Positions 1,720 through 63,850 of a stretch of DNA of 64,000 nt are shown piece after piece. This DNA comes from Escherichia phage VerenaGrendelmeier_Bas101. Where the stretch lies: sequence record PQ850631.1; one strand, given 5' to 3'. The notes beneath the pieces were generated by a model. The model saw nothing but the letters and a program-made list of their open reading frames with translations. It did no database searches and was not told the origin of the DNA. Within the stretch, counting starts at the first letter, position 1, and each line of letters begins with the position of its first letter. The translations under genes were made by a program, and so were the position numbers.

Positions 1720-1857
1720 ATGCAAAAGATTATTCAGTCACGTTATGTTAAAGTGCGAAATATTAATTGCAACTCTTTGCTTTCTTGGAAATGGGCTGTT
1801 TATGACTCGATGTTGATTGGCGTTTTAGTGGCAGGAGTGCTATTTAATATTCACTGA
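1720..1857 (+). CDS. small hydrophobic protein (45 aa)
   Basis: ATG preceded by GAGGAAG RBS; C-terminal hydrophobic stretch MLIGVLVAGVLF. Below the ORF-track size cut-off. Confidence 0.3.
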   Translation: MQKIIQSRYVKVRNINCNSLLSWKWAVYDSMLIGVLVAGVLFNIH

Positions 1858-2160: not shown

Positions 2161-2211
2161 TAAAGGCGCGGCTATATCGGTTGTTATACATATTCAAACC
2201 ATAATTATTGT

Positions 2212-2240
2212 TTGCCTAAGTTTTTTTCATTAGATATAAT
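2212..2240 (+). promoter_or_regulatory. sigma70-like promoter TTGCCT-17-TATAAT for the structural operon
   Basis: -35 at 2212-2217, 17-bp spacer, -10 at 2235-2240, about 25 nt upstream of the 2264 start. Confidence 0.4.
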
Positions 2241-2263: not shown

Positions 2264-3685
2264 ATGCGAATGCAAACGGCACGCGAAATTGACAAAAATG
2301 GATTCTTGACGATTATGGGTTGTCCAATTTCGTCATTTGGCATTTTTGATTATTCTGCTGGTCAAGTTGGTCTTGATGGTGATCCGAATCGCATCGTAAA
2401 AGTCTATCGCCCTGAGTCAGCGGTGAAAGACCCCGAAGCGATAGATTCATTCAAAAATATCCCTTTCATCGACAATCACGAAATGCTTTCTGGATTTGAA
2501 GGTGATGAGGATAACACGGCACCCGAAGAGTATGGTGTCGATGGCGTTCTAACTGGCAATGTTTATTATGACAAGCCATGGATGCGCGGCGACCTTAAAG
2601 TGTTCAGCCGTCGTCTTAAGAAGGCCATTGATTCTGGAAAGGTTGACTTGTCTTTGGGCTATGACTGTGAATTCATCATACAGTCTGGAGAGTTTGACGG
2701 GCAGCCGTATGAAGTGGTGCAGACAACTCTTCGCGGCAACCACATTGCTCTCGTGGACGTTGGTCGAGTACCAGGTGCACGGGTGCTGGATGGTCGTTGC
2801 TTTGACCATCTTTGTTTGACGACTGTAACACCATCCAACGAGGATTTAGACATGCCAAAACCGTTAAAAGGTAAAGCGCGTGATAATGCTGTTGAACAGC
2901 TGAAATCACTGATCCCTGCGCTCGAACAATTTCTGAATGAAGAGAGTGCTGAAGCTGCTCATCAGGACGAAGTTGAAGTGAAAGCAGAAGAGAAGGACTC
3001 AACCGAAAATCGTGAAGAAGTAATGGTTGATCCAGAAGTCAAGGCAGAAGCAGAAGAAACCCCAGAAGGTGAAGAGAAGTTTGAAGTTGAAACTGAATCT
3101 CACGCTGACGGCGAACTTCCGCAATTGATCAGCCAAATCGAAGCACTTATTGCAAAACTGAAAGGTGGCGCGGTAGGTGATGAAGAAGAAGTTGAAGCCG
3201 AAGTCAAAGACGAAGAAGAAGTTGAAGTCAAGGCTGAAGATGTATCACCTTGCGACAAAGCTGAAGATGTGGTTAGCGGCCTGCAAAACAGCAACGTAAA
3301 GGGGGCTTCGGTCGAAAAAGATGACAAACCGACAAAAGCGGCGAAAGCGTCGCCAGGTCCAGCAAAAGGGGAACACTCAATGGCATCTGATTCAGCAGTT
3401 GCTGCTTTCTACGCTGATTCTGCTCGTAAGAATAGCCTCTACCAGCGCCTGTCTAAAGTTGTTGGTGCCTTTGATCATGCAACTATGGACTCCAAGTCCG
3501 TAGCGAAATATGGCGCTAAAAAGTTAGGCTTGAAGTGCGTTGATGGTGCTGAGTTTGACGTGGTGGATAATTATCTGCGCGGCGTTGAGCACGGTCAAAA
3601 ACAGCGTGTAGTCGCAAAACAAAAGGCCGCTGCGGATTCTGCAGCAACTGACGAAGCATTTGAAGCTTGGTTGAAAGGGGAATAA
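2264..3685 (+). CDS. capsid maturation protease / scaffolding-like protein (DUF2213-like N-terminal domain, acidic repeat C-terminal half)
   Basis: N-terminal 200 aa resemble phage prohead protease-like domains. C-terminal half is highly acidic with tandem EEEVEAEVKDEEEVEVKAED repeats. An in-frame ATG at 2270 has better RBS spacing. Confidence 0.5.
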   Translation: MRMQTAREIDKNGFLTIMGCPISSFGIFDYSAGQVGLDGDPNRIVKVYRPESAVKDPEAIDSFKNIPFIDNHEMLSGFEGDEDNTAPEEYGVDGVLTGNVYYDKPWMRGDLKVFSRRLKKAIDSGKVDLSLGYDCEFIIQSGEFDGQPYEVVQTTLRGNHIALVDVGRVPGARVLDGRCFDHLCLTTVTPSNEDLDMPKPLKGKARDNAVEQLKSLIPALEQFLNEESAEAAHQDEVEVKAEEKDSTENREEVMVDPEVKAEAEETPEGEEKFEVETESHADGELPQLISQIEALIAKLKGGAVGDEEEVEAEVKDEEEVEVKAEDVSPCDKAEDVVSGLQNSNVKGASVEKDDKPTKAAKASPGPAKGEHSMASDSAVAAFYADSARKNSLYQRLSKVVGAFDHATMDSKSVAKYGAKKLGLKCVDGAEFDVVDNYLRGVEHGQKQRVVAKQKAAADSAATDEAFEAWLKGE

Positions 3686-3687
3686 AC

Positions 3688-4305
3688 ATGATTTTCCAAA
3701 CTAGTGTAGGCCGTCAATATACAACTGGCTTTCCTGGCGACATCGTTCGCGACGGCCCACAGCGTGGGAAGCCAGGCCGAATCGTTAGCGCCAACGACGG
3801 TGCAAACGTAAACGCCATCAGCCGTGTGTTTGGTTTTAAGGCTGACGTGTCATTAATGGGTACTGGCCAAACCAAAACCTTGGGCGCGCAGGACTTTGAA
3901 GTTGAACTGGGCGGCACCAATTACTATGGCATCCTTGGCAACAGCAAGCGTTACGCTCTGTATGGCAACTCTACTGGTCCTTTGGGTGCCAGCATGGTTC
4001 TGCCTCAATATAGCGAAGGCGAGTTCTATGATATGTGCACGGGCCTCGTAGTTGAAGTATTCAACCCAAGCACCAGTCCGCAGACGCTGAACTACGGCGA
4101 CCTGCTCGCTTATGTACCTAAAGGCATTTCCAGCGGTAACAACCCGAACAACTTGCCTATCGGTGCAATTATCGCCTATACTGGCTCACTGCCAACTGGC
4201 ATGGTTGCCATTCCAGGCGGTATCGTGATTGACCCGACTGCTATTGCCCTTTCCGGCCCAAGCGTCCAGTCTTCCACTTATACCATTGTACAATTGACTC
4301 GTTAA
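3688..4305 (+). CDS. head protein of unknown function (possible decoration/cement protein)
   Basis: AAGGGG RBS then ATG at 3688; lies between protease/scaffold and major capsid genes. Confidence 0.4.
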   Translation: MIFQTSVGRQYTTGFPGDIVRDGPQRGKPGRIVSANDGANVNAISRVFGFKADVSLMGTGQTKTLGAQDFEVELGGTNYYGILGNSKRYALYGNSTGPLGASMVLPQYSEGEFYDMCTGLVVEVFNPSTSPQTLNYGDLLAYVPKGISSGNNPNNLPIGAIIAYTGSLPTGMVAIPGGIVIDPTAIALSGPSVQSSTYTIVQLTR

Positions 4306-4319
4306 TAGGCAGGTGAATA

Positions 4320-5459
4320 ATGACTCGCATTAGCCAAACACACTCTCGCCTCCCAGCGAGCAAGGTGCGCCCTTTTGATATGCAATCCGTTACTGACGCG
4401 GCTGTTTCCCAGCTTGCTCGTATCGGTATTGTGTTTGATTCCGCGATTGTGCGTGATCAGATTGAGCACTTAAACCGTGCAGGCGCTTTCCGCGTAGGTG
4501 ACGCCGCGTTTACTGCGCCGCAGACTACTCCGTCAATCCCGACCCCGTTGCAATTCCTGCAGCAGTGGCTGCCTGGCTTCGTCAAAATCATGACCGCTGC
4601 TCGTAAAATCGACGAGCTGGTTGGTATTGATACCGTTGGTCAGTGGGAAGATGCAGAAATCGTTCAGGGCATCGTTGAACCAGCTGGCACCGCAGTTGAA
4701 TATGGTGATTTCACATCTATTCCTCTGGCAAGCTGGAACGTAAACTTTGAACGTCGTTCTATCGTTCGTGGCGAAATGGGCATGGCAGTTGGTATGCTGG
4801 AAGAAGGCCGCGCATCCGCTATGCGTCTGAACTCCGCAGAAACCAAGCGCCAGCAGGCTGCTGTATCTCTGGAAATCATGCGTAACGCAATCGGCTTCTA
4901 TGGTTGGTACAACGGGAACAACCGCACATTCGGCTTCCTGAATGATCCAAACCTGCCAGCAGCGATGACTTCCAACACCACTTCCGGCTGGGCTACTGCG
5001 ACTTTCCAACAGGTAACTGCAGACATCCGTTTGATGGTTCGTCAAATTCGTGTGAACTCTCAGGACCAGATTGATCCAGAGAAAGTTGACATGACTCTGG
5101 CGCTGCCGACTAACTCTATCGATTGGCTGTCCAACACCACTGACTTCGGTATTTCTGTACGTGACTGGATCACCCAGACTTATCCGAAGATGAAGATCAA
5201 ATCTGCACCGGAACTCAACGGCGCACTTGGCAGTGACCCGACTTTCTTGAACGTGGCATACCTGTACGCCGATCACATCGATTCCTCAATCGATGGTTCA
5301 AGCGATGATGGTTCCGTATTCAGTCAGCTGGTTCAAACCAAGTTCATGACTCTGGGCGTTGAAAAGCGTGCTAAGAGCTACGTTGAAGACTACGCAAACG
5401 CAACAGCAGGCGTTCTGCTCAAGCGTCCGTTCGCAGTCGTCCGTATGACTGGTATTTAA
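4320..5459 (+). CDS. major capsid protein
   Basis: 379 aa, position after scaffold, strongly optimised codon usage, followed by a hairpin; resembles the DUF2184-type capsid family. Confidence 0.7.
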
Positions 5460-12990: not shown

Positions 12991-15171
12991 GTGTCTGACT
13001 CATTAGAAAAATTTGTGCTTCAATATACGGTGGACTTGAAAGAGTCCATCAATCGTCTTGAGCAATTGCAAGATAAGGTTGATCAGACAAACAAAAAGGC
13101 GAAATCCGCTGGCAAAGATTTCTCTGGAGCATTCAAAGATGTTTTTGGCGAGCTAAAGCCGCTTACTGGTGAGCTAGGGTCAATTGACGGAATACTTGCG
13201 CGGCTGACATATCGTTTTGCCGCGCTCGTTCCTGTTGTCGCAGGATTGGCCGTCGTCGTCAAATCCATCGTTGATGTTCGAAAAGAATACGAAGCGCAAA
13301 GAAAGCTTGGTTTTGAAGCCGGACTCTCTCCAATGGGCGTCGAACAACTACAACGACAGTTGAATGAAAGTTCAGGTGGCATCCTTGGCGCACAGGGGTC
13401 GCGCGATTTAATCAGCAAAGCTTCTAATCTGGCATTCAATGCATACACCAACCCCGATGTGATGAACAAGGACAACTTGTTGTTGAACAAGATGGGGACA
13501 AGTCCTTTCAACAGTAACGGCGGCATCAAAGACACGAATCAGCTGCTTGATGAAATTGGAACAAAGCTGAGAAGTGTGAATGAGCAAACCGCTCGTGCTA
13601 TTGGTGCTCTGGCAGGTTTTACCGCCGATGAAGTCCGCGCCCTTCGCGAGCGCAACCAGTCTGTGAAAGAAAGCACACGCATAAGCGATGAGGAAACGGC
13701 AAAGCTGCAGCGCCAACAAGCTGCTCTTGAGACTATACGAAATAGTATGGGGCAAATTCAAGAAGATTGGCGGCGTATTGAACTGGTTATCGGTGAAAAC
13801 GTTATGCCTGCATTCTCGACGCTTGTCAGCAAGACCGCCGATACAGTCGAAGGATTCCAGATGATGTTCCAAAGAATGTCTGACGGATGGAGCGAATTTG
13901 TCGACAATTTCATCGCTGACTTGAAACACCCGTTTGATAAACAGGCGGCTGTTAACGAGCGTCACGAGCGTGCCGTTGATAGATGGATCACGCAGATGGC
14001 CGAAGGCGATGTGAAACGCCAGAGGAACCAGGAGCAAAACGCTGCTGAACAACGCTCTGCACAGGCTCTTTTTACTCGCGATATCAACCTGTTTTCAAGT
14101 GCCGTTTCAACCTTTGCTGGCGTGATTGATGAGCGTCAAGCTTGGGCGGCATGGGCAGGTGAAATCGGGCGCAGCGCAGGGCAATCCGCGATGCCTGGAA
14201 CACCAGCATTGAATACTGGCGCGACCGTAGGGAATAATCTTGGGTCAGGGAATCCGACAGCATATGACTCAATATATGAGGAAGCTTCAAAACGCTATGG
14301 CATACCTGTAGCGATGATGAAGGCTGTAACTGAAGTCGAATCTGGATTCAATCCAAATGCTGTGAGCGGAGCAGGCGCGACTGGTTTGATGCAAATCATG
14401 CCTTCTAACTTCAAGGGTCTTGGAATAACAGATGGTAATGATCCTCGACAAAACATTATGGGCGGCGCTCAACTTTTGAAAGAGTATCTGAACGCCGCCA
14501 ACGGCGATTGGAATCTTGCGCTGACGATGTATCACGGCGGCTACGACCGAAGCGGCTGGGGCAAGAACACACGCGCGTATCCTGGAAAGGTGATGGCCGC
14601 TCTCGCCCGACAATCCAATGGCGAGTATGCCACGACAGCGCCGCAAGGTGCACCAGTTACTCCAGTACTTAGCGGTAGCGGAGCGGAAGCGCCAAAGGGC
14701 CGTTATGCACCAGTACAAGGTCAATCGCGCCAAACGGTGCAATACAGGCAATTGCAAGAAGCCATTGCAGGATACCTGAACGTACCAGTTGAGCAGTTGA
14801 TGCAGGGACAAGTCAACAAAGGTGATATTGACTTTGCTCAAACTTACCTTAAGCTTGGCACGCAAAGGGATTATATTAAAAACATGCAACTGGCTTCAAC
14901 TCCAGGTGTAAGACCGAACATTCAAGCCGAAGCTATGAAAAACGCTCGTCTTGCTGCATTCCAACTTGAAGCATTCCAGAAATACGGCGGCGACCTTTCC
15001 GCGAATAGTCGACCTGGTGGGCGTGATATTACTATGGGTCAGAAAAACGTTGTCATCAACATCAACGGCGCTCAAGACCCACGCAGCACGGCATTCGAAA
15101 CGAAACGAGTGCTTGAACAAGATGATATCAACGACATAAACAACCTTACTGCTACACCTTTGAAGTGGTGA
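12991..15171 (+). CDS. tape measure protein with C-terminal lytic transglycosylase (SLT) domain
   Basis: 726 aa; coiled-coil N-terminal part, hydrophobic segment, SLT signature EVESGFNPNAVSGAGATGLMQIM...YHGGYD. Confidence 0.7.
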   Translation: MSDSLEKFVLQYTVDLKESINRLEQLQDKVDQTNKKAKSAGKDFSGAFKDVFGELKPLTGELGSIDGILARLTYRFAALVPVVAGLAVVVKSIVDVRKEYEAQRKLGFEAGLSPMGVEQLQRQLNESSGGILGAQGSRDLISKASNLAFNAYTNPDVMNKDNLLLNKMGTSPFNSNGGIKDTNQLLDEIGTKLRSVNEQTARAIGALAGFTADEVRALRERNQSVKESTRISDEETAKLQRQQAALETIRNSMGQIQEDWRRIELVIGENVMPAFSTLVSKTADTVEGFQMMFQRMSDGWSEFVDNFIADLKHPFDKQAAVNERHERAVDRWITQMAEGDVKRQRNQEQNAAEQRSAQALFTRDINLFSSAVSTFAGVIDERQAWAAWAGEIGRSAGQSAMPGTPALNTGATVGNNLGSGNPTAYDSIYEEASKRYGIPVAMMKAVTEVESGFNPNAVSGAGATGLMQIMPSNFKGLGITDGNDPRQNIMGGAQLLKEYLNAANGDWNLALTMYHGGYDRSGWGKNTRAYPGKVMAALARQSNGEYATTAPQGAPVTPVLSGSGAEAPKGRYAPVQGQSRQTVQYRQLQEAIAGYLNVPVEQLMQGQVNKGDIDFAQTYLKLGTQRDYIKNMQLASTPGVRPNIQAEAMKNARLAAFQLEAFQKYGGDLSANSRPGGRDITMGQKNVVININGAQDPRSTAFETKRVLEQDDINDINNLTATPLKW

Positions 15172-23177: not shown

Positions 23178-23822
23178 ATGATTAATGCAAACGTGATATC
23201 TAAAGGGACCGGATGCAGCATGGATGTCGCAGAGAAATGGGTGGACCCTTTCAAGCAGGCTTGTGAGCACTACGGAATCAAAAGCAAGAACGCCATCGCG
23301 GCGTTGCTTGCAAACGTAGGAGTGGAAACAGGCAGTCTGAAGACATTTGTGGAAAACTTGAATTATTCCGCTCAAGGTCTTGCTAATACATGGCCTAGCC
23401 GTTACAGCGCCAGCGGTCGTTTCGGCGGTGCACCCAACTCCTTGGCATTGTCGATTGCCCGTAAACCAATGGAAATCGCCAATAATACATATGCAAACCG
23501 CATGGGCAACGGTTCGGTAGCATCGGGAGACGGTTGGAAGTACCGTGGCCGTGGTGCCATTCAGCTGACTGGAAAGGATAACTATGCAGATTATTCAAAG
23601 CAATCAGGCTATGACGCATTGAACAATCCTGATATTCTGACTGAACCAAAATACATCGCTGACAGCGCGGCATGGTTCTTTAAGAATAGCGGCTGTATTC
23701 CTCTTGCCGATGCGGGTGCATTTGATTCGACTGTTAAGCGGATTAACGGGGCCGCGCCGAATACGGCTAACCATGGGGATTTGCGACGGAAGCGTTACAA
23801 GGATGCACTAGCAGTTATGTAA
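23178..23822 (+). CDS. endolysin, glycoside hydrolase family 19-like
   Basis: Motif YRGRGAIQLTGKDNYADY and AAWFFKNSG consistent with GH19. Confidence 0.75.
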   Translation: MINANVISKGTGCSMDVAEKWVDPFKQACEHYGIKSKNAIAALLANVGVETGSLKTFVENLNYSAQGLANTWPSRYSASGRFGGAPNSLALSIARKPMEIANNTYANRMGNGSVASGDGWKYRGRGAIQLTGKDNYADYSKQSGYDALNNPDILTEPKYIADSAAWFFKNSGCIPLADAGAFDSTVKRINGAAPNTANHGDLRRKRYKDALAVM

Positions 23823-23823
23823 G

Positions 23824-23854
23824 AAAAAGGCCCATATGGGCCTTTGTTTATTTT
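23824..23854. terminator. bidirectional rho-independent terminator
   Basis: Palindrome GGCCCATATGGGCC flanked by A-tract upstream and T-tract downstream, between convergent genes. Confidence 0.7.
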
Positions 23855-24078
23855 ACGGCTTCAACCTGGACGGGCGGCGCGGAGCTTGTATCAATGTCTG
23901 GCAAGTCGAAGTAATACCCCGCCATGCCAATCACGCCAACAATCGCGGCCCGTGCCACCTTGTTGCTAATTGACTCCCCAATAAGCTTTACCAACAGGGA
24001 CAAGATTTGAGACGTCAAAGCCTTTTTCAGCCTTTTGTTTTCTTCCAAATCTTTCTGCATAACTACCACCCATGTCAA
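23848..24078 (-). CDS. small membrane protein (one TM)
   Basis: Hydrophobic segment AAIVGVIGMAGYYF. Confidence 0.4.
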   Translation of the reverse strand: MTWVVVMQKDLEENKRLKKALTSQILSLLVKLIGESISNKVARAAIVGVIGMAGYYFDLPDIDTSSAPPVQVEAVK

Positions 24079-24617
24079 CGCACATCCTGTGTCTTAACAT
24101 TACCTGAAGCATCTCTTAAGGGCAGTGGATAGTAGGCCATTTGGTAGTCTGATACGCCTTCAACATGATAAAACACGATTACGTCTTTGCTGTTGATGAG
24201 CATGTTAACGACATCTGATTTATCTTCTGGAGTAAGTATGAGTGCGCCGCCTGTCCTGCTGTCTACTGCAACAGGGTATGTCTTGTCGACAAGGCCGCTG
24301 TCCAATGTATTATACCTGACAACGATTTCAGGGGCATCAACTTTTGCAATTGACATTCCGAACACAAACGACACGACTTGGCGACCGCGATCATTCATTA
24401 CGCACATCTTTTCCTTGTCAAACCTTTCCTTTATCACATCGTATTTGTTCCAGCAAAATTCGAACGATTGGCCGTTGTTAAAATATCGAGTTAATACTTT
24501 TGCATTGCTGTTTGGCGGCGTAAACATACTTTCAGCCGCAGCACTTTTGGTGAAGAACAAAACTGTCAGCATAGCCATGATGATGATCAAAACAATCTTT
24601 AAATTTTTTGATTTCAT
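24075..24617 (-). CDS. secreted protein with N-terminal signal peptide
   Basis: MKSKNLKIVLIIIMAMLTVLFFTKSAAAES resembles a Sec signal peptide. Confidence 0.5.
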   Translation of the reverse strand: MKSKNLKIVLIIIMAMLTVLFFTKSAAAESMFTPPNSNAKVLTRYFNNGQSFEFCWNKYDVIKERFDKEKMCVMNDRGRQVVSFVFGMSIAKVDAPEIVVRYNTLDSGLVDKTYPVAVDSRTGGALILTPEDKSDVVNMLINSKDVIVFYHVEGVSDYQMAYYPLPLRDASGNVKTQDVR

Positions 24618-25771: not shown

Positions 25772-26361
25772 TCAAACTCCTTATTCATCACTTGTTCCAG
25801 CGCATAGGCGTAAGCCTGATCAGTCGATTTGATGAATGTGCCGTTGTACATGACACCTTTTCGGTCTTTAATGTCTTCGTAGGCCGCTTGCGCACAGTCG
25901 GATAAGCGAAGGCCATAATCATGAGCTACGCCGGAAAGGTAATCGGATGCGGCCATGATGGTCACGTCAATATCCATGGTCTGATTCTTAGCGATTGCAT
26001 CACCAAGTCGTCCAAGGGTCTTTGCCAGGCGAAGGATAAATGAATGAGGGTGAGCACCTTTATCAGCGCAACCGCCGCCATTAATGTTTTCGATTTCAGT
26101 ACCGTTTTGCGCTGCCAGGATGGTCAACACAACAAGGCAATCGCCGATGTCGTCCTTAATTGCTGCCTGCAAGTCACAGATGGCTTGCTCTGTATATCCA
26201 ATTTCAGGGTCGAAGAACACAAGGTCATGGAGTTGATCAACGTGGTCGGTTAACTCCCCGAACTCGCTGATAAGCTTCGGGTATTGGTCCTTAAGGTCGC
26301 AACCTTGGATGATGTTACGGTCAGAAGCCCACTGGCGAATGTTTGCATAAATCTGTTTCAT
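25768..26361 (-). CDS. MazG-like nucleotide pyrophosphohydrolase
   Basis: IRQWASDRNI, LISEFGELTDHV and IGDCLVVLTILAAQNG match the MazG-type EExxE helical pattern. Confidence 0.5.
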   Translation of the reverse strand: MKQIYANIRQWASDRNIIQGCDLKDQYPKLISEFGELTDHVDQLHDLVFFDPEIGYTEQAICDLQAAIKDDIGDCLVVLTILAAQNGTEIENINGGGCADKGAHPHSFILRLAKTLGRLGDAIAKNQTMDIDVTIMAASDYLSGVAHDYGLRLSDCAQAAYEDIKDRKGVMYNGTFIKSTDQAYAYALEQVMNKEFE

Positions 26362-26876
26362 TTATTTTCCTTTGATGCATTGAATTGATCGATTTTTATT
26401 TTAGCCTGATTATAAGTATCAATCAAGCTATTAACTTTCTCTTTTAATCGATTTGTTTCTGCGGCGAACTGAACAAGAAAACTGACATCTTCTTCTGATA
26501 GTCCACAGTTTCCTTCTGGGATAGAGAGGCGTCCAGTGGTCGCAGAGTCGGGCATACTCCTGAGTAACTCACGGGAGCAGCTGAGTTGCGCGCGCAACTT
26601 GATATTCCCAGACTTGTAACGAGCAATAGTGTCATCAGCAACCAGTTGCGCTTCCTGGCGACCCTTCTCATATGCCGATGCCGATTCAACCTGTAAAGAT
26701 GCAATTTGCTCTTCGAGTGCATTTATCTTGTCCTTACGCTCATTAAGCGATGTCAGATATTGATTATCCTTGACCAGTGATGCGTTGGTTTGCTGCAGGT
26801 CTTCAACGTATGATCCAGCGGCAAACGCGCCAACAAGGGCCAGAATCTTCAGGAGCGGTACAATTCTTTCTATCAT
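26358..26876 (-). CDS. Rz: i-spanin (Rz-like)
   Basis: N-terminal TM (ILALVGAFAAGSYV) followed by coiled-coil periplasmic domain; contains an embedded lipoprotein ORF. Confidence 0.65.
   Translation of the reverse strand: MIERIVPLLKILALVGAFAAGSYVEDLQQTNASLVKDNQYLTSLNERKDKINALEEQIASLQVESASAYEKGRQEAQLVADDTIARYKSGNIKLRAQLSCSRELLRSMPDSATTGRLSIPEGNCGLSEEDVSFLVQFAAETNRLKEKVNSLIDTYNQAKIKIDQFNASKENK
26444..26671 (-). CDS. Rz1: o-spanin (Rz1-like) lipoprotein, embedded in the Rz frame
   Basis: Alternative frame inside 26358-26876: MRRVARKRNWLLMTLLLVTSLGISSC with lipobox Cys; Pro-containing mature part. Confidence 0.55.
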   Translation of the reverse strand: MRRVARKRNWLLMTLLLVTSLGISSCARNSAAPVSYSGVCPTLRPLDASLSQKETVDYQKKMSVFLFSSPQKQID

Positions 26877-37253: not shown

Positions 37254-37700
37254 TTAACGGTAATTCACTAGTTGCTGATCACCAGAGAAGGTGCAATGAT
37301 AAACGAATTGTGCGTTATAAAGCAACTGAAAACTTTTCTTTGGTTCATTATTAGAACTCATTGATGTAAAGATTTCTGCACCAGAACGGTTTTCACCAAT
37401 CAGGTTAATAAAGCCGCCAGTTGAACGAGGCTGAACGAAAGTGAAACGCTGCATCCACGGAGTCCGGTTGGCACCTTTTCCGGTGAATCCCTGAATCTGA
37501 ATATTCAGACCTTCTTGCTCGTTCACACCGATGTAAGTGGTAATTGTTGCGCCAGTCGTCGCTGCGGTCTTGCCGTCCATCGCTTCGCAATCGTAAACAG
37601 CGATTGAATCGGAAGTACGGACAGCGGCTTCAGTCGCTTCCATATACATGGTTCCGAGAATAGCAGTCGCGGCAAGCGCGATTCCAGTGATGCGTTTCAT
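37254..37700 (-). CDS. secreted protein with signal peptide, unknown function
   Basis: MKRITGIALAATAILGTMYMEATEAA signal-like N-terminus; two Cys. Confidence 0.5.
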   Translation of the reverse strand: MKRITGIALAATAILGTMYMEATEAAVRTSDSIAVYDCEAMDGKTAATTGATITTYIGVNEQEGLNIQIQGFTGKGANRTPWMQRFTFVQPRSTGGFINLIGENRSGAEIFTSMSSNNEPKKSFQLLYNAQFVYHCTFSGDQQLVNYR

Positions 37701-43430: not shown

Positions 43431-43535
43431 ATGAAAGCCGTAAAGAAATACACATTAATCATTTCCCTTGTTATCATCCTGGGGCTATTATATGTATTGG
43501 ATATGGCATATTATTTGGCAGGGGTGAGTAAATGA
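43431..43535 (+). CDS. very small membrane peptide (34 aa)
   Basis: MKAVKKYTLIISLVIILGLLYVLDMAYYLAGVSK; ATGA overlap with next gene. Confidence 0.25.
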   Translation: MKAVKKYTLIISLVIILGLLYVLDMAYYLAGVSK

Positions 43536-56766: not shown

Positions 56767-56906
56767 AATAAACTCCTAGTTGGGAGAGGCGTTAACGACC
56801 TATTCGTTAACTCATCCCGTCCCGATATGAGTACATTATAATATAGTGTAGAAAAAAGTAAAGCACTTTTTCGATAAAAATGCGATAAATTATTTTATCT
56901 TTTTTC

Positions 56907-57304: not shown

Positions 57305-57333
57305 TTTACTTCTTCGTACACTAAGACTATAAT
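57305..57333 (+). promoter_or_regulatory. sigma70-like promoter TTTACT-17-TATAAT, paralog of 56907-56934
   Basis: Shares CTTTACTTCTTCGTACACT and the GTTTTATATCGAGAG leader. Confidence 0.45.
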
Positions 57334-59495: not shown

Positions 59496-59589
59496 AATTC
59501 ATGCCGCAGCAGCGTGGATGATTGCGTAAACGATTCCAAACAGGGCGACAATACAAACCGTGCCCCAAAATGCAAAGCGTCGCGCCTCT

Positions 59590-59877
59590 TTATCCATTAG
59601 AGCCTTCTCCGCTGTTAATGTTGTCCAAAATCAAGGTTGGAATTTCATCTTGAGTCCTGACTTTGTAATGCGAAGGCATTTTGCTTTCTAACAATGCCTG
59701 TTCAGCTTCTCCCTTTGTCTCAAAGAGCGGGATGCACCAATCAACTGCATTGCCGTGTTCATCACCCTTGACGGCCTTCAAAAAGACAAGGCGCTTGTCC
59801 GCAGGGTCGATGCCGCAAATTAAGTATTTTGGAAGAGATTTTGCTTTCTGAGCTTTATCAATATCTTCAAATTTCAT
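59590..59877 (-). CDS. hypothetical protein (95 aa)
   Basis: Start at ATG with GAGGTG RBS. Confidence 0.4.
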   Translation of the reverse strand: MKFEDIDKAQKAKSLPKYLICGIDPADKRLVFLKAVKGDEHGNAVDWCIPLFETKGEAEQALLESKMPSHYKVRTQDEIPTLILDNINSGEGSNG

Positions 59878-59958: not shown

Positions 59959-62292
59959 TTATTTCGCTGCTTTTAGCGCGGCTATCTCTGCCTCTAGTGA
60001 CTCGACCTTTTTCATCAACTCCTGTACCACGTGCATCGTATCCAAAAGCATAGGTGTCGTATCAAGTTGTTTTTGTTCAACTTCGACACCTTCACTCGGA
60101 TAGAATTTAATCGTCTTAACATACAAAGGATCAATAATCTCTGCCTGTTGAGCGATAATACCCCTTCTTATCCTTTCCTTTTCATCATTGTTGTATATGA
60201 ACGTTACATACTCCAGCGATGAAAGGTTGCTCCATGCTTTTTCAACCGTTCCTGGTTTTATGTCATGCTTCAAATTCTCATCAGAGATGGCATTCTTCTG
60301 AAGCGTGTAAAAACTATCTGATCCAAGAATTGACACAGAGAAGAATACATCATGAGAGTTTGGCTGGATGTTCATCCTTGTTTGGTATTGCGCGTTATCG
60401 TCACCTACGACAAGCCAAGTCCCCTGAGCAAAACTTCCATTATTATTGTGGATCAAACCGTGATGAAGAGTGGTCGCATAGCCTGTATCTACTTGTTGAC
60501 CGCCGCTAAAAAGGCTGTTGAATGCATAGTTTTGACCTATTGACTGTCTCACCGTTGCATAAGTGCCGATTCTTGTGCCAGTCTCATTCCAAGACATGAG
60601 ACTTCCGTATCTTGCTGCGTATCGGTCGCTACTCAGGGTTCCTGAATCATCAAACGCAAGGTCTTTTGTAACTCCTTTTGTTTTGTTATATACAGATAAA
60701 ATTGCATAATAAAAGCCATCCATGTATGCATCGCACCGAAGCCCAGCATCAGCCTCAACGACGGTTCCGATTTTGTATTGAGCCCTTATCTGACCAGATG
60801 ATGCCTTGACTCCAGAACCTGGGCGAACGGAGTCAGCATTGATGACCTGCCATTGCGTATCCGCGGCAACGAATCCACCCGATGCACGAATCACCCAAAC
60901 TCCGACGAAGTTGCGCGGAACAATTTCCGCTGCTGAACGACCATAAACAGGACTGCAGCGAGAAGCGTCAAAGTTTGTTTGTATGAATCTTGACCCAGAG
61001 CCTGCTGCCGCAGGAGAGTCACCCGAAGTTATTGACTGAAAAGCACCATTAGTTGCCACCTGGCTTGGTGCAGAAGCCAGCGTCACCATTGTGTGCGGCG
61101 CTGAGTAAATTATATTTGGAGCGCCTGATTCAGACACAACCCCGTTGGATGATGAATTCCCACCGTCACCCCTGCCAAATAAGGCCTGTATGGAACCAGT
61201 TTGAACACCGTTCCTGTCAGGCACTCGAAACGTCGTCGTTCCGTTGCCCAGAGAATATTTGCCGCGTTTTGCTGGGTCTGCTAACCAATCTGCATCAGCA
61301 ATAGGTGAAAGCATTTGCGCATACGCCCAAAGCTCAGGCCAATCAGCACGATTGAGTAGTTGACCGTCAGCGACGACTTCATAAGGTTGAATATAAGCGC
61401 GGCTGTCGCGTAAGTGGAAGTCGCCGACGCCATAGTTCATCACGCCGTTCATACTTGGGCCAACGGTGCCTGTGTTCACCAAGTTCTCAACCCAACGCTT
61501 CGTAGTAGCATCATAGTCGTTAACTGGGTCGCCAGCGAGCGGCGTTGATCCTTGAGGGCGTATGTTCAACCAAGCCTGAGCATTATCTGCAGAGCCTGTG
61601 CCGCCCATGGAAGTTGGCACGATGTCTTGATCAGCGACTGCGCCAAATCCAAAGGCCGACTTCACACCATCAATAGTTGTCTGGCCTGTGCCGCCGTTAG
61701 CTACTGGGATTACGGTTGACTCGGAATAAATCATGACCCAAGAAGACCATGATTGAGTTTCCATGGTGAATCTTCTTTGATATGTATTGTTGGAATCGAA
61801 TGTCGTATATCGTTGAATGCAACTTTCTGATATAACGCCTGTCTGCAATACTTCTAATACTCCTGCTTGCTGCGCAGGGTAATTCAAAGCTGAAGATGCA
61901 CCACCGTTTGAATTTTGGAAGTACTGCCCAAACCAAGTCCCTGTAAGCGCATTAAGATTCATGCCGGATGGAACAATCCCAAAGTTTCGGACAGTGCCCG
62001 TCAAAGTCGCGGCAGTAGTTCGAATGGAAAGCATATCGCCCGCCGCCCATGCACGAGCTGCAGTACCTTCCTGCGCACGCTGCACGGTTAGAACGTTTCC
62101 AACAACGGCTGTTACTGTGACGATTTCGAACTGGAGGCCTGTTGCAGCGTCGACGATTGTCGCCACTACACGCTCGTTTGCGCCCAAGGTCGGAAAGCCC
62201 GACCCTGAGCGGATTGTGATTGTGGTGCCTGAAGTCGTCGTTGGCTGAGCGAGCGCGACCTCAAAGTTGTTTTTGAATATTAGCCTTGGCAT
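59959..62292 (-). CDS. tail fiber / tailspike protein with C-terminal intramolecular chaperone (peptidase S74-like) domain
   Basis: 777 aa; C-terminal SDENLKHDIKP...LEYVTFIYNND...RRGIIAQQAEIIDPLYV and terminal coiled coil. Confidence 0.65.
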   Translation of the reverse strand: MPRLIFKNNFEVALAQPTTTSGTTITIRSGSGFPTLGANERVVATIVDAATGLQFEIVTVTAVVGNVLTVQRAQEGTAARAWAAGDMLSIRTTAATLTGTVRNFGIVPSGMNLNALTGTWFGQYFQNSNGGASSALNYPAQQAGVLEVLQTGVISESCIQRYTTFDSNNTYQRRFTMETQSWSSWVMIYSESTVIPVANGGTGQTTIDGVKSAFGFGAVADQDIVPTSMGGTGSADNAQAWLNIRPQGSTPLAGDPVNDYDATTKRWVENLVNTGTVGPSMNGVMNYGVGDFHLRDSRAYIQPYEVVADGQLLNRADWPELWAYAQMLSPIADADWLADPAKRGKYSLGNGTTTFRVPDRNGVQTGSIQALFGRGDGGNSSSNGVVSESGAPNIIYSAPHTMVTLASAPSQVATNGAFQSITSGDSPAAAGSGSRFIQTNFDASRCSPVYGRSAAEIVPRNFVGVWVIRASGGFVAADTQWQVINADSVRPGSGVKASSGQIRAQYKIGTVVEADAGLRCDAYMDGFYYAILSVYNKTKGVTKDLAFDDSGTLSSDRYAARYGSLMSWNETGTRIGTYATVRQSIGQNYAFNSLFSGGQQVDTGYATTLHHGLIHNNNGSFAQGTWLVVGDDNAQYQTRMNIQPNSHDVFFSVSILGSDSFYTLQKNAISDENLKHDIKPGTVEKAWSNLSSLEYVTFIYNNDEKERIRRGIIAQQAEIIDPLYVKTIKFYPSEGVEVEQKQLDTTPMLLDTMHVVQELMKKVESLEAEIAALKAAK

Positions 62293-62330
62293 TTTACGGT
62301 CCTCGTTTTGTCGACAACCGTATTATAACC

Positions 62331-62672
62331 TTAATTTCTTTTGAGAGGAATATGACGGTGGCTGCCATTATTTGGTTTAATAATGAGCATAAAAACGATT
62401 AGAAAGATGATGGCTGATATACTTAATTCAATCAGCGCGGCTTGAGATATAGATTGATCTTCATGATACTGCTTTTGCATTTCTGCTTTCTTCTGAGCGC
62501 AAACTTCAGGTGATATGTAATCACCTTTTGAGTTGCCATAATAAATTTCGCCGTTTTCAGAAATCAGTCTGCCGCAAATATCCGTTTCAGCCTTTGCGCT
62601 CGACATCATAATAACGGTGCCGATGATAGCGGCGATAGTCCAGATTAACAGTTGTGATAAAGTGTTGTTCAT
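62331..62672 (-). CDS. membrane protein with N-terminal signal peptide and C-terminal TM anchor
   Basis: Start at ATG with AGAGG RBS; MNNTLSQLLIWTIAAIIGTVIMMSSAKA; C-terminal LIELSISAIIFLIVFMLII. Confidence 0.45.
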   Translation of the reverse strand: MNNTLSQLLIWTIAAIIGTVIMMSSAKAETDICGRLISENGEIYYGNSKGDYISPEVCAQKKAEMQKQYHEDQSISQAALIELSISAIIFLIVFMLIIKPNNGSHRHIPLKRN

Positions 62673-62868
62673 GATAACCTCTTTAAATTCCCTTCCCATA
62701 TCGGGAAGGGTGAATATTATTCTACTCGAAAGAACAGGCGCGTACCACACAGCGAGTCCCAACGGCCTTCACCATCCCATACCGACCCAACGCCAGCGGT
62801 GATAACCCCAGCAGAATTGGCGGCATTGGCCCAGGCGAGACGTTTCAGCTTCCAACTGCACCAACGAT

Positions 62869-63105
62869 TCACAGGTCATCTCCTAACTGTAAAATAGAGC
62901 CTGCATAAATGATCGCTAGAGCTAAAGGCGCACCGCTTCCAACTTCTCTATTCTCTTTAATTTGAAGAGTATCCTTAAGGAATTGAAGTTGCACGTTAAA
63001 TTCACTTTCGACTCCAAGAGATACGGCCAATCCCCTTATGGACTCAGCAAAAACTTTTGTCAAGACTTCTTGGGGGATATCAACTGTAATTTTTTCACTT
63101 GCCAT
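62869..63105 (-). CDS. hypothetical protein
   Basis: Start at ATG (alternative TTG at 63123). Confidence 0.35.
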   Translation of the reverse strand: MASEKITVDIPQEVLTKVFAESIRGLAVSLGVESEFNVQLQFLKDTLQIKENREVGSGAPLALAIIYAGSILQLGDDL

Positions 63106-63316
63106 TTTCTTTCCACTCCACAAATGTGCTATCGCTTGTTTCTCTATTTAGCAGGTATCTGCCGCGCATTCCATGAAGGCTAAACTCAACCGTCGATGGA
63201 TTAGATTTTGAAAGCCATATAGGTTGCCCGTCGAATGGACCGCCTATGCACGTGTATTTAGCTTTTGGCTCACTCCTTTTGGGCCGTTTCGCCCGCTCTT
63301 TGATTGATAGTCTCAT
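63095..63316 (-). CDS. hypothetical basic protein
   Basis: 73 aa ORF. Confidence 0.35.
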   Translation of the reverse strand: MRLSIKERAKRPKRSEPKAKYTCIGGPFDGQPIWLSKSNPSTVEFSLHGMRGRYLLNRETSDSTFVEWKENGK

Positions 63317-63531
63317 CAGTCTTCACCTTGAGATTCCAGACAAGTAAGGACAAGCCAAGTCATCGGAAGAATCAAAACCAGAGAAATGAGGGACCAGATA
63401 GACCAGCACAGGATGACAGACTTGAATGTGTGAACGTCGCCAAACGCAGCAGTAAAACAGAATCCCATTACAAATGCAATAGCTGTGGAATGGTTATCTA
63501 TGGCTTTGATGGCGCGGTCGATGAGTTTCAT
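63316..63531 (-). CDS. small two-TM membrane protein (holin-like candidate)
   Basis: 71 aa, two hydrophobic segments (AIAFVMGFCFTAAFG; ILCWSIWSLISLVLILPMTWLVL), charged C-terminus. Confidence 0.4.
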   Translation of the reverse strand: MKLIDRAIKAIDNHSTAIAFVMGFCFTAAFGDVHTFKSVILCWSIWSLISLVLILPMTWLVLTCLESQGED

Positions 63532-63619
63532 ATTACCTCCGATTTTGAGTTAATATGATTATAACGCAGAGTTTCAGAAAGGCAAACTTTTTGTGAATTA
63601 TGCCGTCCATGGCATCGTA

Positions 63620-63850
63620 TCAGTGTGAAGACGCAATTAATGTGCCACTTCCCTTTGCGAAAATCTCAACGCCTGGCGGGATTGTGACTGTACCAACAAC
63701 TGCGATTCCGATCAAATTGTCATCGGCCTTTTCCCCAAAACAAATCTCAGCGGCACCGCCGCGAACTTGAATAAGTGCTCCTGATACGTTTTCAGCAACA
63801 GAGATTACGGAAGTATAAGAGGGAGTGAGTTGAATGTTGACTAGGGCCAT
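63620..63850 (-). CDS. hypothetical protein
   Basis: AGGAG RBS upstream of ATG on minus strand. Confidence 0.4.
   Translation of the reverse strand: MALVNIQLTPSYTSVISVAENVSGALIQVRGGAAEICFGEKADDNLIGIAVVGTVTIPPGVEIFAKGSGTLIASSH

What the first reader, a model, noticed from the sequence alone, without database searches (positions are those of the whole stretch)
62331..63531. Cluster of small membrane proteins beside the second fiber gene
62331-62672 has a signal peptide plus a C-terminal TM anchor, and 63316-63531 is a 71-aa two-TM protein with a charged C-terminus (holin-like). Together with the fiber gene they form a leftward block with its own terminators. They may be the missing holin/antiholin or superinfection-exclusion proteins.
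Basis: inference. Interest (0 to 1): 0.35.

Follow-up and report, generated by a model that had tools for sequence, protein, structure and literature searches.

The report
Small membrane proteins in fibre operon
Two small, genuine inner-membrane protein genes sit in the same transcription unit as the variable tail fibre of this Wifcevirus-type E. coli phage, but whether they time lysis, block superinfection or do something else cannot be settled from sequence.

Summary
The window is a Wifcevirus (PB1-like E. coli myophage), about 91% identical to phage Bas100. Both ORFs are real genes. "A" (62331-62672, 113 aa) and "E" (63316-63531, 71 aa) occur in all 28 Wifcevirus records at 96% amino-acid identity or more, with pN/pS of 0.04 and 0.03.

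E is a two-helix hairpin. A has an N-terminal signal or anchor, a roughly 50-residue periplasmic part with two Cys, a C-terminal TM helix and a basic tail. The three genes between them (D, C, B) are soluble.

All five genes lie with the T-shaped fibre in one unit: an invariant promoter (TTGCCT-16-TATAAT) at one end and a terminator after the fibre.

Neither protein has any detectable homologue outside Wifcevirus-like phages. E has one positional counterpart in Pantoea phage Kyle.

No holin is annotated in this genus, the endolysin is soluble, and E is the only small two-TM protein. A lysis role is therefore plausible (about 0.3).

A rival candidate exists. The 70-aa gene beside the endolysin (23848-24060) is the homologue of PA1-LRP, which showed lysis-related activity in experiments.

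Superinfection exclusion remains possible (about 0.2). The finding is of modest interest.

The parts
63558..63585 (-). Promoter-like site upstream of E: TTGCCT, 16 nt, TATAAT
   Evidence: Found by the promoter scan at 10 of 12 consensus positions. The site and the GGAGG Shine-Dalgarno are invariant in 11 relatives. GTTTGCCT-N-TATAAT occurs only twice in the window; the other copy precedes the head protease/capsid operon. Pantoea phage Kyle has the same TTGCCT -35 before its E-like gene.
63316..63531 (-). Gene E, 71 aa. Amphipathic N-terminus, marginal TMD1, strong 28-residue TMD2, acidic tail ESQGED
   Evidence: Hydropathy and charge analysis. AF2 gives a helical hairpin. It is present in 28 of 28 records, and pN/pS is 0.034. 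No homologue was found beyond Wifcevirus- and Kyle-like phages.
63095..63316 (-). Gene D, 73 aa, basic and soluble. Its start overlaps the stop of E (ATGA)
   Evidence: It matches phrog_12090 at E 1e-27, a family of unknown function. pN/pS is 0.094. Distant homologues lie in replication modules of Ralstonia and Pseudomonas phages.
62869..63105 (-). Gene C, 78 aa, acidic, no TM. Its N-terminal half diverges from relatives
   Evidence: ORF listing and hydropathy. Only 74-83% nucleotide identity over part of the gene. Protein-level comparison with relatives.
62717..62872 (-). Gene B, 51 aa, Trp-rich and basic, no TM
   Evidence: All three frames are open here, but only the annotated frame shows purifying selection: pN/pS is 0.11 against 1.5 and 2.7.
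62690..62710 (-). Conserved stem-loop CCCTTCCC / loop / GGGAAGGG between B and A. The U-tract is poor, so it is an attenuator or an RNA-stability element
   Evidence: The stem is invariant and the loop varies in 11 phages. It is unique in the window. Folding energy is -18.5 kcal/mol, z -3.1.
62331..62672 (-). Gene A, 113 aa. N-terminal signal or anchor (AKA|E), roughly 50-residue periplasmic part with Cys33 and Cys58, C-terminal TM, basic cytoplasmic tail
   Evidence: Hydropathy, AF2 model and charge analysis. It is present in 28 of 28 records, and pN/pS is 0.043. No homologue was found outside Wifcevirus-like contigs.
62293..62330 (-). Leader between A and the fibre gene. It holds TATAAT (62322-62327), the palindrome TTGTCGACAA, and a hairpin that pairs the fibre Shine-Dalgarno
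   Evidence: It is essentially 100% identical in 11 phages, more conserved than the flanking coding sequence. Folding energy is -17.4 kcal/mol, z -5.0.
59959..62292 (-). T-shaped variable tail fibre, 777 aa, with a C-terminal intramolecular chaperone
   Evidence: It matches phrog_6921 and Peptidase_S74. The BASEL paper describes this fibre (PMC11990801).
59932..59951 (-). Intrinsic terminator that closes the E-to-fibre unit
   Evidence: Found by the terminator scan. Folding energy is -13.6 kcal/mol, z -4.8.
63620..63850 (-). Gene F, 76 aa, not a membrane protein. It is an optional insert between the upstream terminator and the E promoter
   Evidence: It is absent in WFC, WFH, kaset, AV128 and Bas99. 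A 76-aa protein was detected by mass spectrometry in phage preparations of vB_Eco4M-7 and ECML-117 (PMC7048862).
63873..63891 (-). Terminator hairpin with a T-run, upstream of F. In phages without F it lies directly upstream of the E promoter
   Evidence: Terminator scan, alignment of relatives and folding.
23848..24060 (-). Rival holin candidate: a 70-aa homologue of PA1-LRP, Kyle gp058 and PB1 gp49, convergent on the endolysin
   Evidence: It matches phrog_5165. It was found in 332 records of Wifcevirus, Pbunavirus, Pantoea and other phages. It is 42% identical to Kyle gp058, E 6e-20. The experiments on PA1-LRP are in PMC11538084.
23178..23822 (+). GH19 endolysin, soluble, with no signal or SAR sequence
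   Evidence: Family matches and translated sequence.
26358..26876 (-). i-spanin, with the o-spanin embedded at 26444-26722
   Evidence: PHROG match and ORF listing.

Best explanation
E and A are genuine inner-membrane proteins made from the same promoter-to-terminator unit as the variable tail fibre.

Shown:
- E is a 71-aa helical hairpin. The charge distribution favours N-in/C-in. It has a cytoplasmic amphipathic N-helix, a weakly hydrophobic TMD1 and a long, strongly hydrophobic TMD2.
- A is a bitopic or hairpin protein. It exposes a roughly 50-residue domain with two Cys to the periplasm and a basic tail to the cytoplasm.

Inferred, most likely single mechanism: they act in lysis control. 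E and/or A would accumulate in the membrane late in infection, together with the fibre. One would form or gate the lesion that lets the soluble GH19 endolysin reach the wall. The other would modulate the timing. This would be a split lysis system like that of T4, where the holin gene t also lies in the late tail-fibre unit far from the endolysin gene.

I put this at about 0.3. The anatomy itself I put at 0.85 or higher.
For: - Need for a holin: the endolysin has no export signal. Spanins are present. No holin is annotated in the expert Mansfield annotation or in Bas100. The 4.7 kb of the genome outside the window encodes no TM protein.
- Candidate inventory: whole-genome hydropathy scans leave E as the only small protein with two hydrophobic helices. 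A is the only other one with two hydrophobic segments.
- E's layout resembles the pinholin layout: amphipathic N-helix, marginal TMD1, stable TMD2. [quoted passage not shown]
- A has the basic cytoplasmic C-tail typical of holins.
- Expression: one unit with a structural gene. The unusual GTTTGCCT...TATAAT promoter is shared only with the head operon. It is conserved in Kyle. Both genes have strong Shine-Dalgarno sequences.
- Both genes are core genes, present in 28 of 28 records. Their constraint is similar to that of the endolysin and spanin: pN/pS 0.06-0.07 against 0.09-0.11.
- Neither protein was detected in virion mass spectrometry.
Against: - No match to any holin family in Pfam, PHROGs or NCBIfam.
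- E has a six-residue acidic tail and no dual start.
- The genes lie 39 kb from the endolysin.
- Pbunavirus shares the endolysin, the spanin position and the LRP gene, but has no E or A.
- The LRP homologue next to the endolysin is conserved across genera and has some experimental support as a lysis protein.
- Kyle has three small multi-TM proteins in this region, so the argument that E is the only candidate is specific to this genus.
- The timing is inferred from only two promoters.
- The promoter is sigma-70-like and could also fire early.
Confidence: 0.3

Rival explanations
1. The real holin is the 70-aa LRP homologue at 23848-24060, beside the endolysin. E and A then have a different role at the membrane, which this reading does not specify.
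For: - The gene is convergent on the endolysin across a bidirectional terminator in Wifcevirus, PB1 and Kyle.
- The family was found in 332 phage records spanning several genera.
- It has a basic N-terminus, an amphipathic helix and a Gly/Ala-rich hydrophobic stretch with a GxxGxxG pattern.
- Kyle gp058 is 42% identical to it and is the closest relative of PA1-LRP.
- Expressed alone, PA1-LRP leaked beta-galactosidase and killed about 25% of cells. It increased killing when fused to the endolysin (PMC11538084).
Against: - The hydrophobic stretch is only about 14-17 residues. It falls below TM thresholds on both scales used.
- The PA1 effects were slow (24 h), weak, and obtained with fusion proteins rather than by holin-type triggering.
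- PHROGs lists the family as unknown function.
- This reading does not exclude E or A acting as a partner or antiholin.
Confidence: 0.4
2. E and A form a superinfection-exclusion or envelope-protection pair, analogous to T4 Imm (a small two-TM inner-membrane protein) plus Sp (an exported periplasmic inhibitor of the tail lysozyme). They would block DNA entry or the tail-associated transglycosylase of later-arriving sibling phages.
For: - The architectures parallel Imm and Sp (the Imm/Sp properties come from my own knowledge).
- The genes lie next to the receptor-binding protein gene, as llp does in T5 and cor does in T1 (own knowledge).
- They are restricted to this genus, that is, to one host.
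- They are constant whatever the fibre receptor-binding domain. This fits a target that is conserved in all Wifcevirus tails, such as the transglycosylase-bearing tape-measure protein at 12991-15171.
- The sigma-70-like promoter could be used by host RNA polymerase from the start of infection.
Against: - No similarity to any exclusion or defence model.
- A has no lipobox.
- Exclusion genes are usually accessory and variable, whereas these are present in 28 of 28 records and tightly conserved.
- They are co-transcribed with a late structural gene, and the promoter type is shared with the head operon.
Confidence: 0.2
3. E and A are accessory factors for assembly, attachment or regulation of the fibre, or are themselves virion components.
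For: - They are in the same operon as the fibre.
- Kyle keeps an E-like gene upstream of a quite different receptor-binding protein, an EPS depolymerase.
- The neighbouring gene F was detected in phage preparations.
Against: - Fibres assemble in the cytoplasm.
- This fibre carries its own intramolecular chaperone.
- A would be exported or inserted in the membrane.
- Neither A nor E was detected by mass spectrometry in two phages.
Confidence: 0.07

Closest known systems
Class II holins / pinholin S21-68 of phage 21
   Same: About 70 aa with two helices, likely N-in/C-in. TMD1 is weakly hydrophobic and rich in Ala, Gly, Ser and Thr, and TMD2 is stable.
   Different: No sequence similarity. E has a six-residue acidic tail instead of a basic tail. 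It has no dual start and is not next to the endolysin. The endolysin here is soluble rather than SAR-type, so a pinhole would not be enough.
T4 holin T with antiholin RI
   Same: The lysis genes are scattered. T4's holin gene t sits in the late tail-fibre unit, far from gene e (own knowledge). T has an essential cytoplasmic amphipathic helix before its TM, and its regulator acts through a periplasmic domain (PMC12162936).
   Different: T is 218 aa with one TM and a large periplasmic globular domain. RI has no C-terminal TM. No similarity to E or A was detected.
T4 Imm and Sp superinfection-exclusion proteins
   Same: A small two-TM inner-membrane protein is paired with a small exported periplasmic protein (own knowledge).
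   Different: No sequence or fold match. imm and sp are early genes that are not linked to a fibre gene. A is anchored by a C-terminal TM.
T5 Llp and T1/phi80 Cor
   Same: A small envelope protein is encoded beside the receptor-binding or tail-fibre genes (own knowledge).
   Different: Llp and Cor are outer-membrane lipoproteins with a lipobox, and they mask FhuA. A has AKA|ETDIC with no lipobox, and E is an inner-membrane hairpin. The Wifcevirus fibre targets O-antigen.
PA1-LRP / Kyle gp058 / PB1 gp49 family (phrog_5165)
   Same: A small hydrophobic protein from the same group of phages, implicated in endolysin-dependent killing.
   Different: It is a different gene at a different locus (23848-24060). 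It is unrelated in sequence to E and A, and it is conserved across genera whereas E and A are not.
Pbunavirus PB1 gp08 and gp10
   Same: A pair with matching architectures near the terminase gene on the opposite strand. gp08 has an N-terminal hydrophobic segment, a periplasmic part and a C-terminal TM. gp10 is a small multi-TM protein.
   Different: No significant similarity: E 0.036 and 1.4 in pairwise comparisons. The pair lies on the other side of the terminase gene and is not linked to a fibre. Its function is also unknown.

Membership tests
Holin (general criteria) | Small protein (about 60-150 aa) with at least one TM domain | tested here: met
   E is 71 aa with two helices. A is 113 aa with two hydrophobic segments.
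Holin (general criteria) | Hydrophilic, highly charged (usually basic) cytoplasmic C-terminal tail | tested here: not met
   E ends in ESQGED, net -3, with no basic residue. A does have such a tail, KPNNGSHRHIPLKRN at net +4, so the criterion is met for A only.
Holin (general criteria) | Gene adjacent to the endolysin or spanin genes | tested here: not met
   The endolysin is at 23178-23822 and the spanins at 26358-26876. E and A are at 62331-63531. T4 shows that this feature is not universal.
Holin (general criteria) | Dual-start motif that yields a holin and an antiholin | tested here: not met
   E begins MKLIDR. Its next Met is residue 22, inside TMD1.
Holin (general criteria) | Membership of a described holin sequence family | tested here: not met
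   No holin family matched in Pfam, PHROGs or NCBIfam at permissive thresholds. E has only sub-threshold YijD/DUF1422 matches of 14-16 bits.
Holin (general criteria) | Late expression | tested here: inconclusive
   The genes share a unit with the fibre, and the promoter motif is shared only with the head operon. No expression data exist.
Holin (general criteria) | Timed lethal membrane permeabilisation that releases the endolysin | not testable with these tools
   This requires expression and lysis assays.
Superinfection exclusion (Imm/Sp, Llp/Cor types) | Sequence or fold similarity to a known exclusion protein | tested here: not met
   Searches of PHROGs, Pfam, PADLOC and Foldseek BFVD gave nothing.
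Superinfection exclusion (Imm/Sp, Llp/Cor types) | Lipoprotein signal (for the Llp/Cor type) | tested here: not met
   A has no Cys at +1 of a lipobox. The site reads SSAKA|ETDIC.
Superinfection exclusion (Imm/Sp, Llp/Cor types) | Expression lowers the plating of the same or related phages | not testable with these tools
   This requires plating assays.
Sec-type cleavable signal peptide (protein A) | Small residues at -3 and -1 after a hydrophobic core | tested here: met
   A-K-A|E follows a 16-residue h-region. AF2 confidence drops at residues 27-29.
Sec-type cleavable signal peptide (protein A) | Positively charged n-region | tested here: not met
   MNNTLSQ carries no Lys or Arg. Cleavage is therefore uncertain.
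Unimolecular spanin (protein A) | N-terminal outer-membrane lipoprotein signal plus a C-terminal TM | tested here: not met
   The C-terminal TM is present but there is no lipobox. The periplasmic part is only about 50 residues, and a two-component spanin already exists.

The most novel reading that the evidence does not exclude
E, together with its positional counterpart in Pantoea phage Kyle, founds a previously undescribed holin family. The gene is placed at the head of the receptor-binding-protein operon. A would be a membrane-tethered periplasmic regulator. Wifcevirus would then have a T4-like dispersed lysis system whose timing is tied to fibre expression, which could bear on the very short latent period reported for these phages.
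Probability: 0.2. Interest if true: 0.5.

Novelty: new member of a known kind. Interest (0 to 1): 0.3.

Why it matters
No holin has been identified for Wifcevirus. Nor has one been identified for its relatives the Pbunaviruses, which are widely used in phage therapy. Across about 300 records the Pbunavirus multi-TM candidates are labelled hypothetical.

A short list of candidates (E, A and the LRP homologue) makes the question directly testable with three small clones. If E and A instead exclude superinfecting phage, they would matter for the design of phage cocktails.

Either way, these are already-annotated hypothetical proteins of a known phage genus. The gain is incremental.

Tried and rejected
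- Homology searches gave nothing usable for A, B, C, E and F. I searched Pfam, PHROGs, NCBIfam and PADLOC.
- Three searches of the 5.8-billion-protein index found only Wifcevirus- and Kyle-like sequences.
- A full HMMER scan of 1.84 billion cluster representatives with the E profile found only E itself. It also hit one repeat protein, P0006. That hit comes from a short GxFTAAG..THTFK motif repeated six times in a soluble protein, and I rejected it as spurious.
- A Foldseek search of the A model against BFVD gave no hit below E 0.4. I did not fold-search E, because a two-helix model carries too little information.
- The JJ01 paper's PHASTER-derived 'holin' label for a Pbunavirus 145-aa protein led to PB1 gp10. 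Its position between the terminase and portal genes in Wifcevirus holds only two soluble proteins. In GenBank the family is almost always annotated as hypothetical. I rejected it as evidence.
- I tested for homology between A and PB1 gp08, and between E and PB1 gp10. Neither comparison was significant.
- I looked at the neighbourhoods of distant D homologues for a lysis link. They sit in replication modules and gave no such link.
- I surveyed the regions upstream of the terminase gene in 14 more distant relatives. The ORF calls were noisy and no consistent pattern emerged.
- I tested whether E and A are unusually constrained. They are not: every gene in this genus has pN/pS of 0.13 or less.
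- I considered that C might co-vary with the fibre receptor-binding domain. I did not pursue this, because C turned out to be a conserved gene whose copy in this window is merely divergent.

Full report
**Identity of the window.** The region 59900-64000 matches Escherichia phages of the genus Wifcevirus (PB1-like myophages, family Lindbergviridae). The best match is HansTraber_Bas100, at 91.5% identity over 100% of the query. In every annotated relative the small genes in this region are 'hypothetical protein'. The large neighbouring gene (59959-62292) is the variable T-shaped tail fibre with a C-terminal Peptidase_S74 chaperone. The BASEL study proposes that this fibre targets O-antigen (PMC11990801).

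**Checking the observation.** On the minus strand the order of genes is F, E, D, C, B, A, then the fibre:

| Gene | Coordinates | Length |
|---|---|---|
| F | 63620-63850 | 76 aa |
| E | 63316-63531 | 71 aa |
| D | 63095-63316 | 73 aa |
| C | 62869-63105 | 78 aa |
| B | 62717-62872 | 51 aa |
| A | 62331-62672 | 113 aa |

- **A** has a hydrophobic N-terminus that ends in AKA|E. It then has a roughly 50-residue hydrophilic stretch with Cys33 and Cys58, a very hydrophobic segment at 74-103, and a +4 tail. AF2 (pLDDT 66) gives helix 2-24, a low-confidence break, a small beta-hairpin, and one long helix 55-98 that runs into the membrane segment.
- **Is A's N-terminus cleaved?** The n-region has no positive charge. 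One natural variant carries a 4-residue duplication in the h-region. I therefore cannot say whether the N-terminus is cleaved or stays as an anchor.
- **E** has an amphipathic N-helix, a marginal 17-residue TMD1, a short loop and a 28-residue TMD2. AF2 (pLDDT 71) gives a helical hairpin. Its C-terminal tail is only ESQGED.
- **D, C, B and F** have no convincing TM segment.

So two of the five genes in the flagged interval are membrane proteins.

**Are they real genes?** Yes.
- tblastn finds both A and E in 28 of 28 Wifcevirus records at 95.8-100% amino-acid identity.
- Against eight relatives, pooled pN/pS is 0.043 (A), 0.034 (E), 0.094 (D) and 0.13 (B).
- In the B region all three frames are open, but only the annotated frame shows purifying selection: 0.11 against 1.5 and 2.7.
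- This level of constraint is typical of the genus. Against Mansfield, E is 0.069 and A is 0.059. The endolysin is 0.091, the i-spanin 0.107, and structural genes 0.02-0.03.

**The transcription unit.**
- *Promoter.* A sigma-70-like promoter (TTGCCT-16-TATAAT, 63585-63558) precedes E, and an intrinsic terminator (59951-59932) follows the fibre. The promoter and E's GGAGG Shine-Dalgarno are invariant in 11 relatives.
- *Position of F.* F is an optional insert between an upstream terminator hairpin (63891-63873) and this promoter.
- *Coupling.* The starts and stops of E, D, C and B overlap, so these four are probably translationally coupled.
- *Hairpin between B and A.* Its 8-bp stem is invariant while its loop varies.
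- *Leader between A and the fibre.* Its 38 nt lie within a stretch of about 65 nt that is essentially identical in all relatives. It contains TATAAT and a hairpin that pairs the fibre Shine-Dalgarno.
- *Promoter class.* The extended motif GTTTGCCT-N-TATAAT occurs only twice in 64 kb, where 0.01 occurrences are expected. One copy is here and the other precedes the head protease/capsid operon. This is weak evidence for a shared, structural-gene class of promoter.

**Distribution.**
- Neither A nor E has any homologue outside Wifcevirus-like sequences in 5.8 billion proteins. A divergent E (76% identity) keeps the same synteny.
- A full HMMER scan of 1.84 billion cluster representatives added only a spurious repeat protein.
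- Pantoea phage Kyle, whose terminase is 75% identical, has the same layout. A terminator is followed by a promoter with a TTGCCT -35 element and then a 75-aa two-TM protein. This lies upstream of Kyle's own, quite different receptor-binding protein, an EPS depolymerase.
- The sequence similarity of the Kyle protein to E is not significant on its own: 21-22% identity, hhalign E 0.02. I treat it as a positional counterpart.
- PB1 has no E or A. It carries an architecturally similar pair, gp08 and gp10, near its terminase gene. There is no detectable similarity, and their function is unknown.

**The holin question.**
- The endolysin is a soluble GH19 enzyme with no signal or SAR sequence. An i-/o-spanin pair is present.
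- No holin is annotated in Mansfield or Bas100.
- Hydropathy scans of the window, and of the 4.7 kb of the genome outside it, leave few membrane proteins. They are E, A, three peptides of 32-45 aa, two proteins with signal peptides (180 and 148 aa), the tape-measure protein and the spanins.
- E is the only small protein with two hydrophobic helices. Its layout recalls pinholins and the essential amphipathic helix of T4 holin T (PMC12162936). A has the basic C-tail typical of holins.
- Points against: there is no holin-family match; E's tail is acidic and tiny; there is no dual start; and the genes are 39 kb from the endolysin. T4 shows that this last point is not decisive.

**A rival candidate.** The 70-aa gene at 23848-24060 is convergent on the endolysin and belongs to phrog_5165.
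- It occupies the same position in PB1 (gp49) and Kyle (gp058).
- It is found in 332 phage records across genera.
- It is 42% identical (E 6e-20) to Kyle gp058, which is the closest relative of PA1-LRP.
- PA1-LRP leaked beta-galactosidase, killed about a quarter of cells when expressed alone, and enhanced endolysin killing when fused to the endolysin (PMC11538084).
- Those effects were slow and weak, and its hydrophobic stretch is short. Still, this is the only experimental evidence in the group, and it points away from E and A.

**Superinfection exclusion.** The pair also resembles T4 Imm plus Sp in architecture. It lies beside the receptor-binding gene, as llp does in T5 (own knowledge). It is constant whatever the fibre's receptor-binding domain. 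There is no similarity to any exclusion or defence model. A universally present, tightly conserved gene in a structural operon is not the usual profile of an exclusion gene.

**Verdict.** The interpretation cannot be decided from sequence.

| Reading | Probability |
|---|---|
| E and/or A act in lysis control | about 0.3 |
| The LRP homologue is the holin (not exclusive of E or A acting as partners) | about 0.4 |
| Superinfection exclusion | about 0.2 |
| Fibre- or virion-related role | below 0.1 |

The proteins are genus-restricted orphans of a familiar kind, and their interest is modest.

Noticed in passing
window 23848-24060 (-): This 70-aa gene, convergent on the endolysin, is the homologue of Pantoea phage PA1-LRP, Kyle gp058 and PB1 gp49 (phrog_5165). 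It is conserved next to the endolysin across several genera. It is the best-supported holin-like candidate in this phage group, yet it is annotated as hypothetical everywhere.
   Followed up: yes
window 63620-63850 (-): Gene F (76 aa, beta-rich, not a membrane protein) is present in only some Wifcevirus phages. It is inserted between a terminator hairpin and the E promoter. Published mass spectrometry detected a protein whose mass and sequence coverage fit a 76-aa product. These were vB_Eco4M-7_32 (score 1002) and ECML-117 gp30. F may therefore be virion-associated.
   Followed up: partly
window 62293-62330 (-): The leader between A and the fibre gene is essentially identical in all 11 relatives compared, more conserved than the flanking coding sequence. 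It contains TATAAT, the palindrome TTGTCGACAA, and a hairpin (-17.4 kcal/mol, z -5) that pairs the fibre Shine-Dalgarno. This suggests separate transcriptional or translational control of the fibre.
   Followed up: partly
window 62690-62710: The stem-loop CCCTTCCC/GGGAAGGG between B and A has an invariant stem and a freely varying loop across relatives. Its U-tract is weak. It may be an attenuator or an RNA-processing or stability element that splits the operon into E-D-C-B and A-fibre.
   Followed up: partly
window 2210-2240 (+) and 63558-63587 (-): GTTTGCCT-N16/17-TATAAT occurs only at these two sites, before the head protease/capsid operon and before E. Kyle has TTGCCT at the equivalent promoter. 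A different pair of near-identical promoters (GTGCTTTACT-N17-TATAATGT) lies at about 56835-56862 (-) and 57305-57333 (+). This hints at distinct promoter classes.
   Followed up: partly
window 62717-62872 (-): All three minus-strand frames are open across gene B. In two relatives one alternative frame runs on into A, giving a 182-aa ORF. Only the annotated frame shows purifying selection.
   Followed up: yes
window 59499-59597 (-), 43431-43535 (+), 1720-1857 (+): There are three very small predicted single-TM peptides of 32, 34 and 45 aa. The 32-aa one lies in the next leftward unit, just downstream of the fibre. None matches any family.
   Followed up: partly
window 24075-24617 (-) and 37254-37700 (-): Two proteins of 180 and 148 aa have clear N-terminal signal peptides and match no family. 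The 180-aa gene sits next to the LRP homologue near the endolysin. A gene of similar size (183 aa) occupies the same position in Kyle; no counterpart is annotated there in PB1.
   Followed up: no
L016 (PB1) 3592-4026 and 4894-5331; L047 (Kyle) 584-1138: The related genera each carry their own small multi-TM proteins near the terminase gene. These are PB1 gp08, gp10 and gp15, and two further two-TM proteins of 84 and 68 aa in Kyle. They have no detectable similarity to E or A.
   Followed up: partly
protein P0005 (variant of A): A metagenomic variant of A carries an in-frame IAAI duplication in the N-terminal hydrophobic segment. That segment therefore tolerates changes in length.
   Followed up: no
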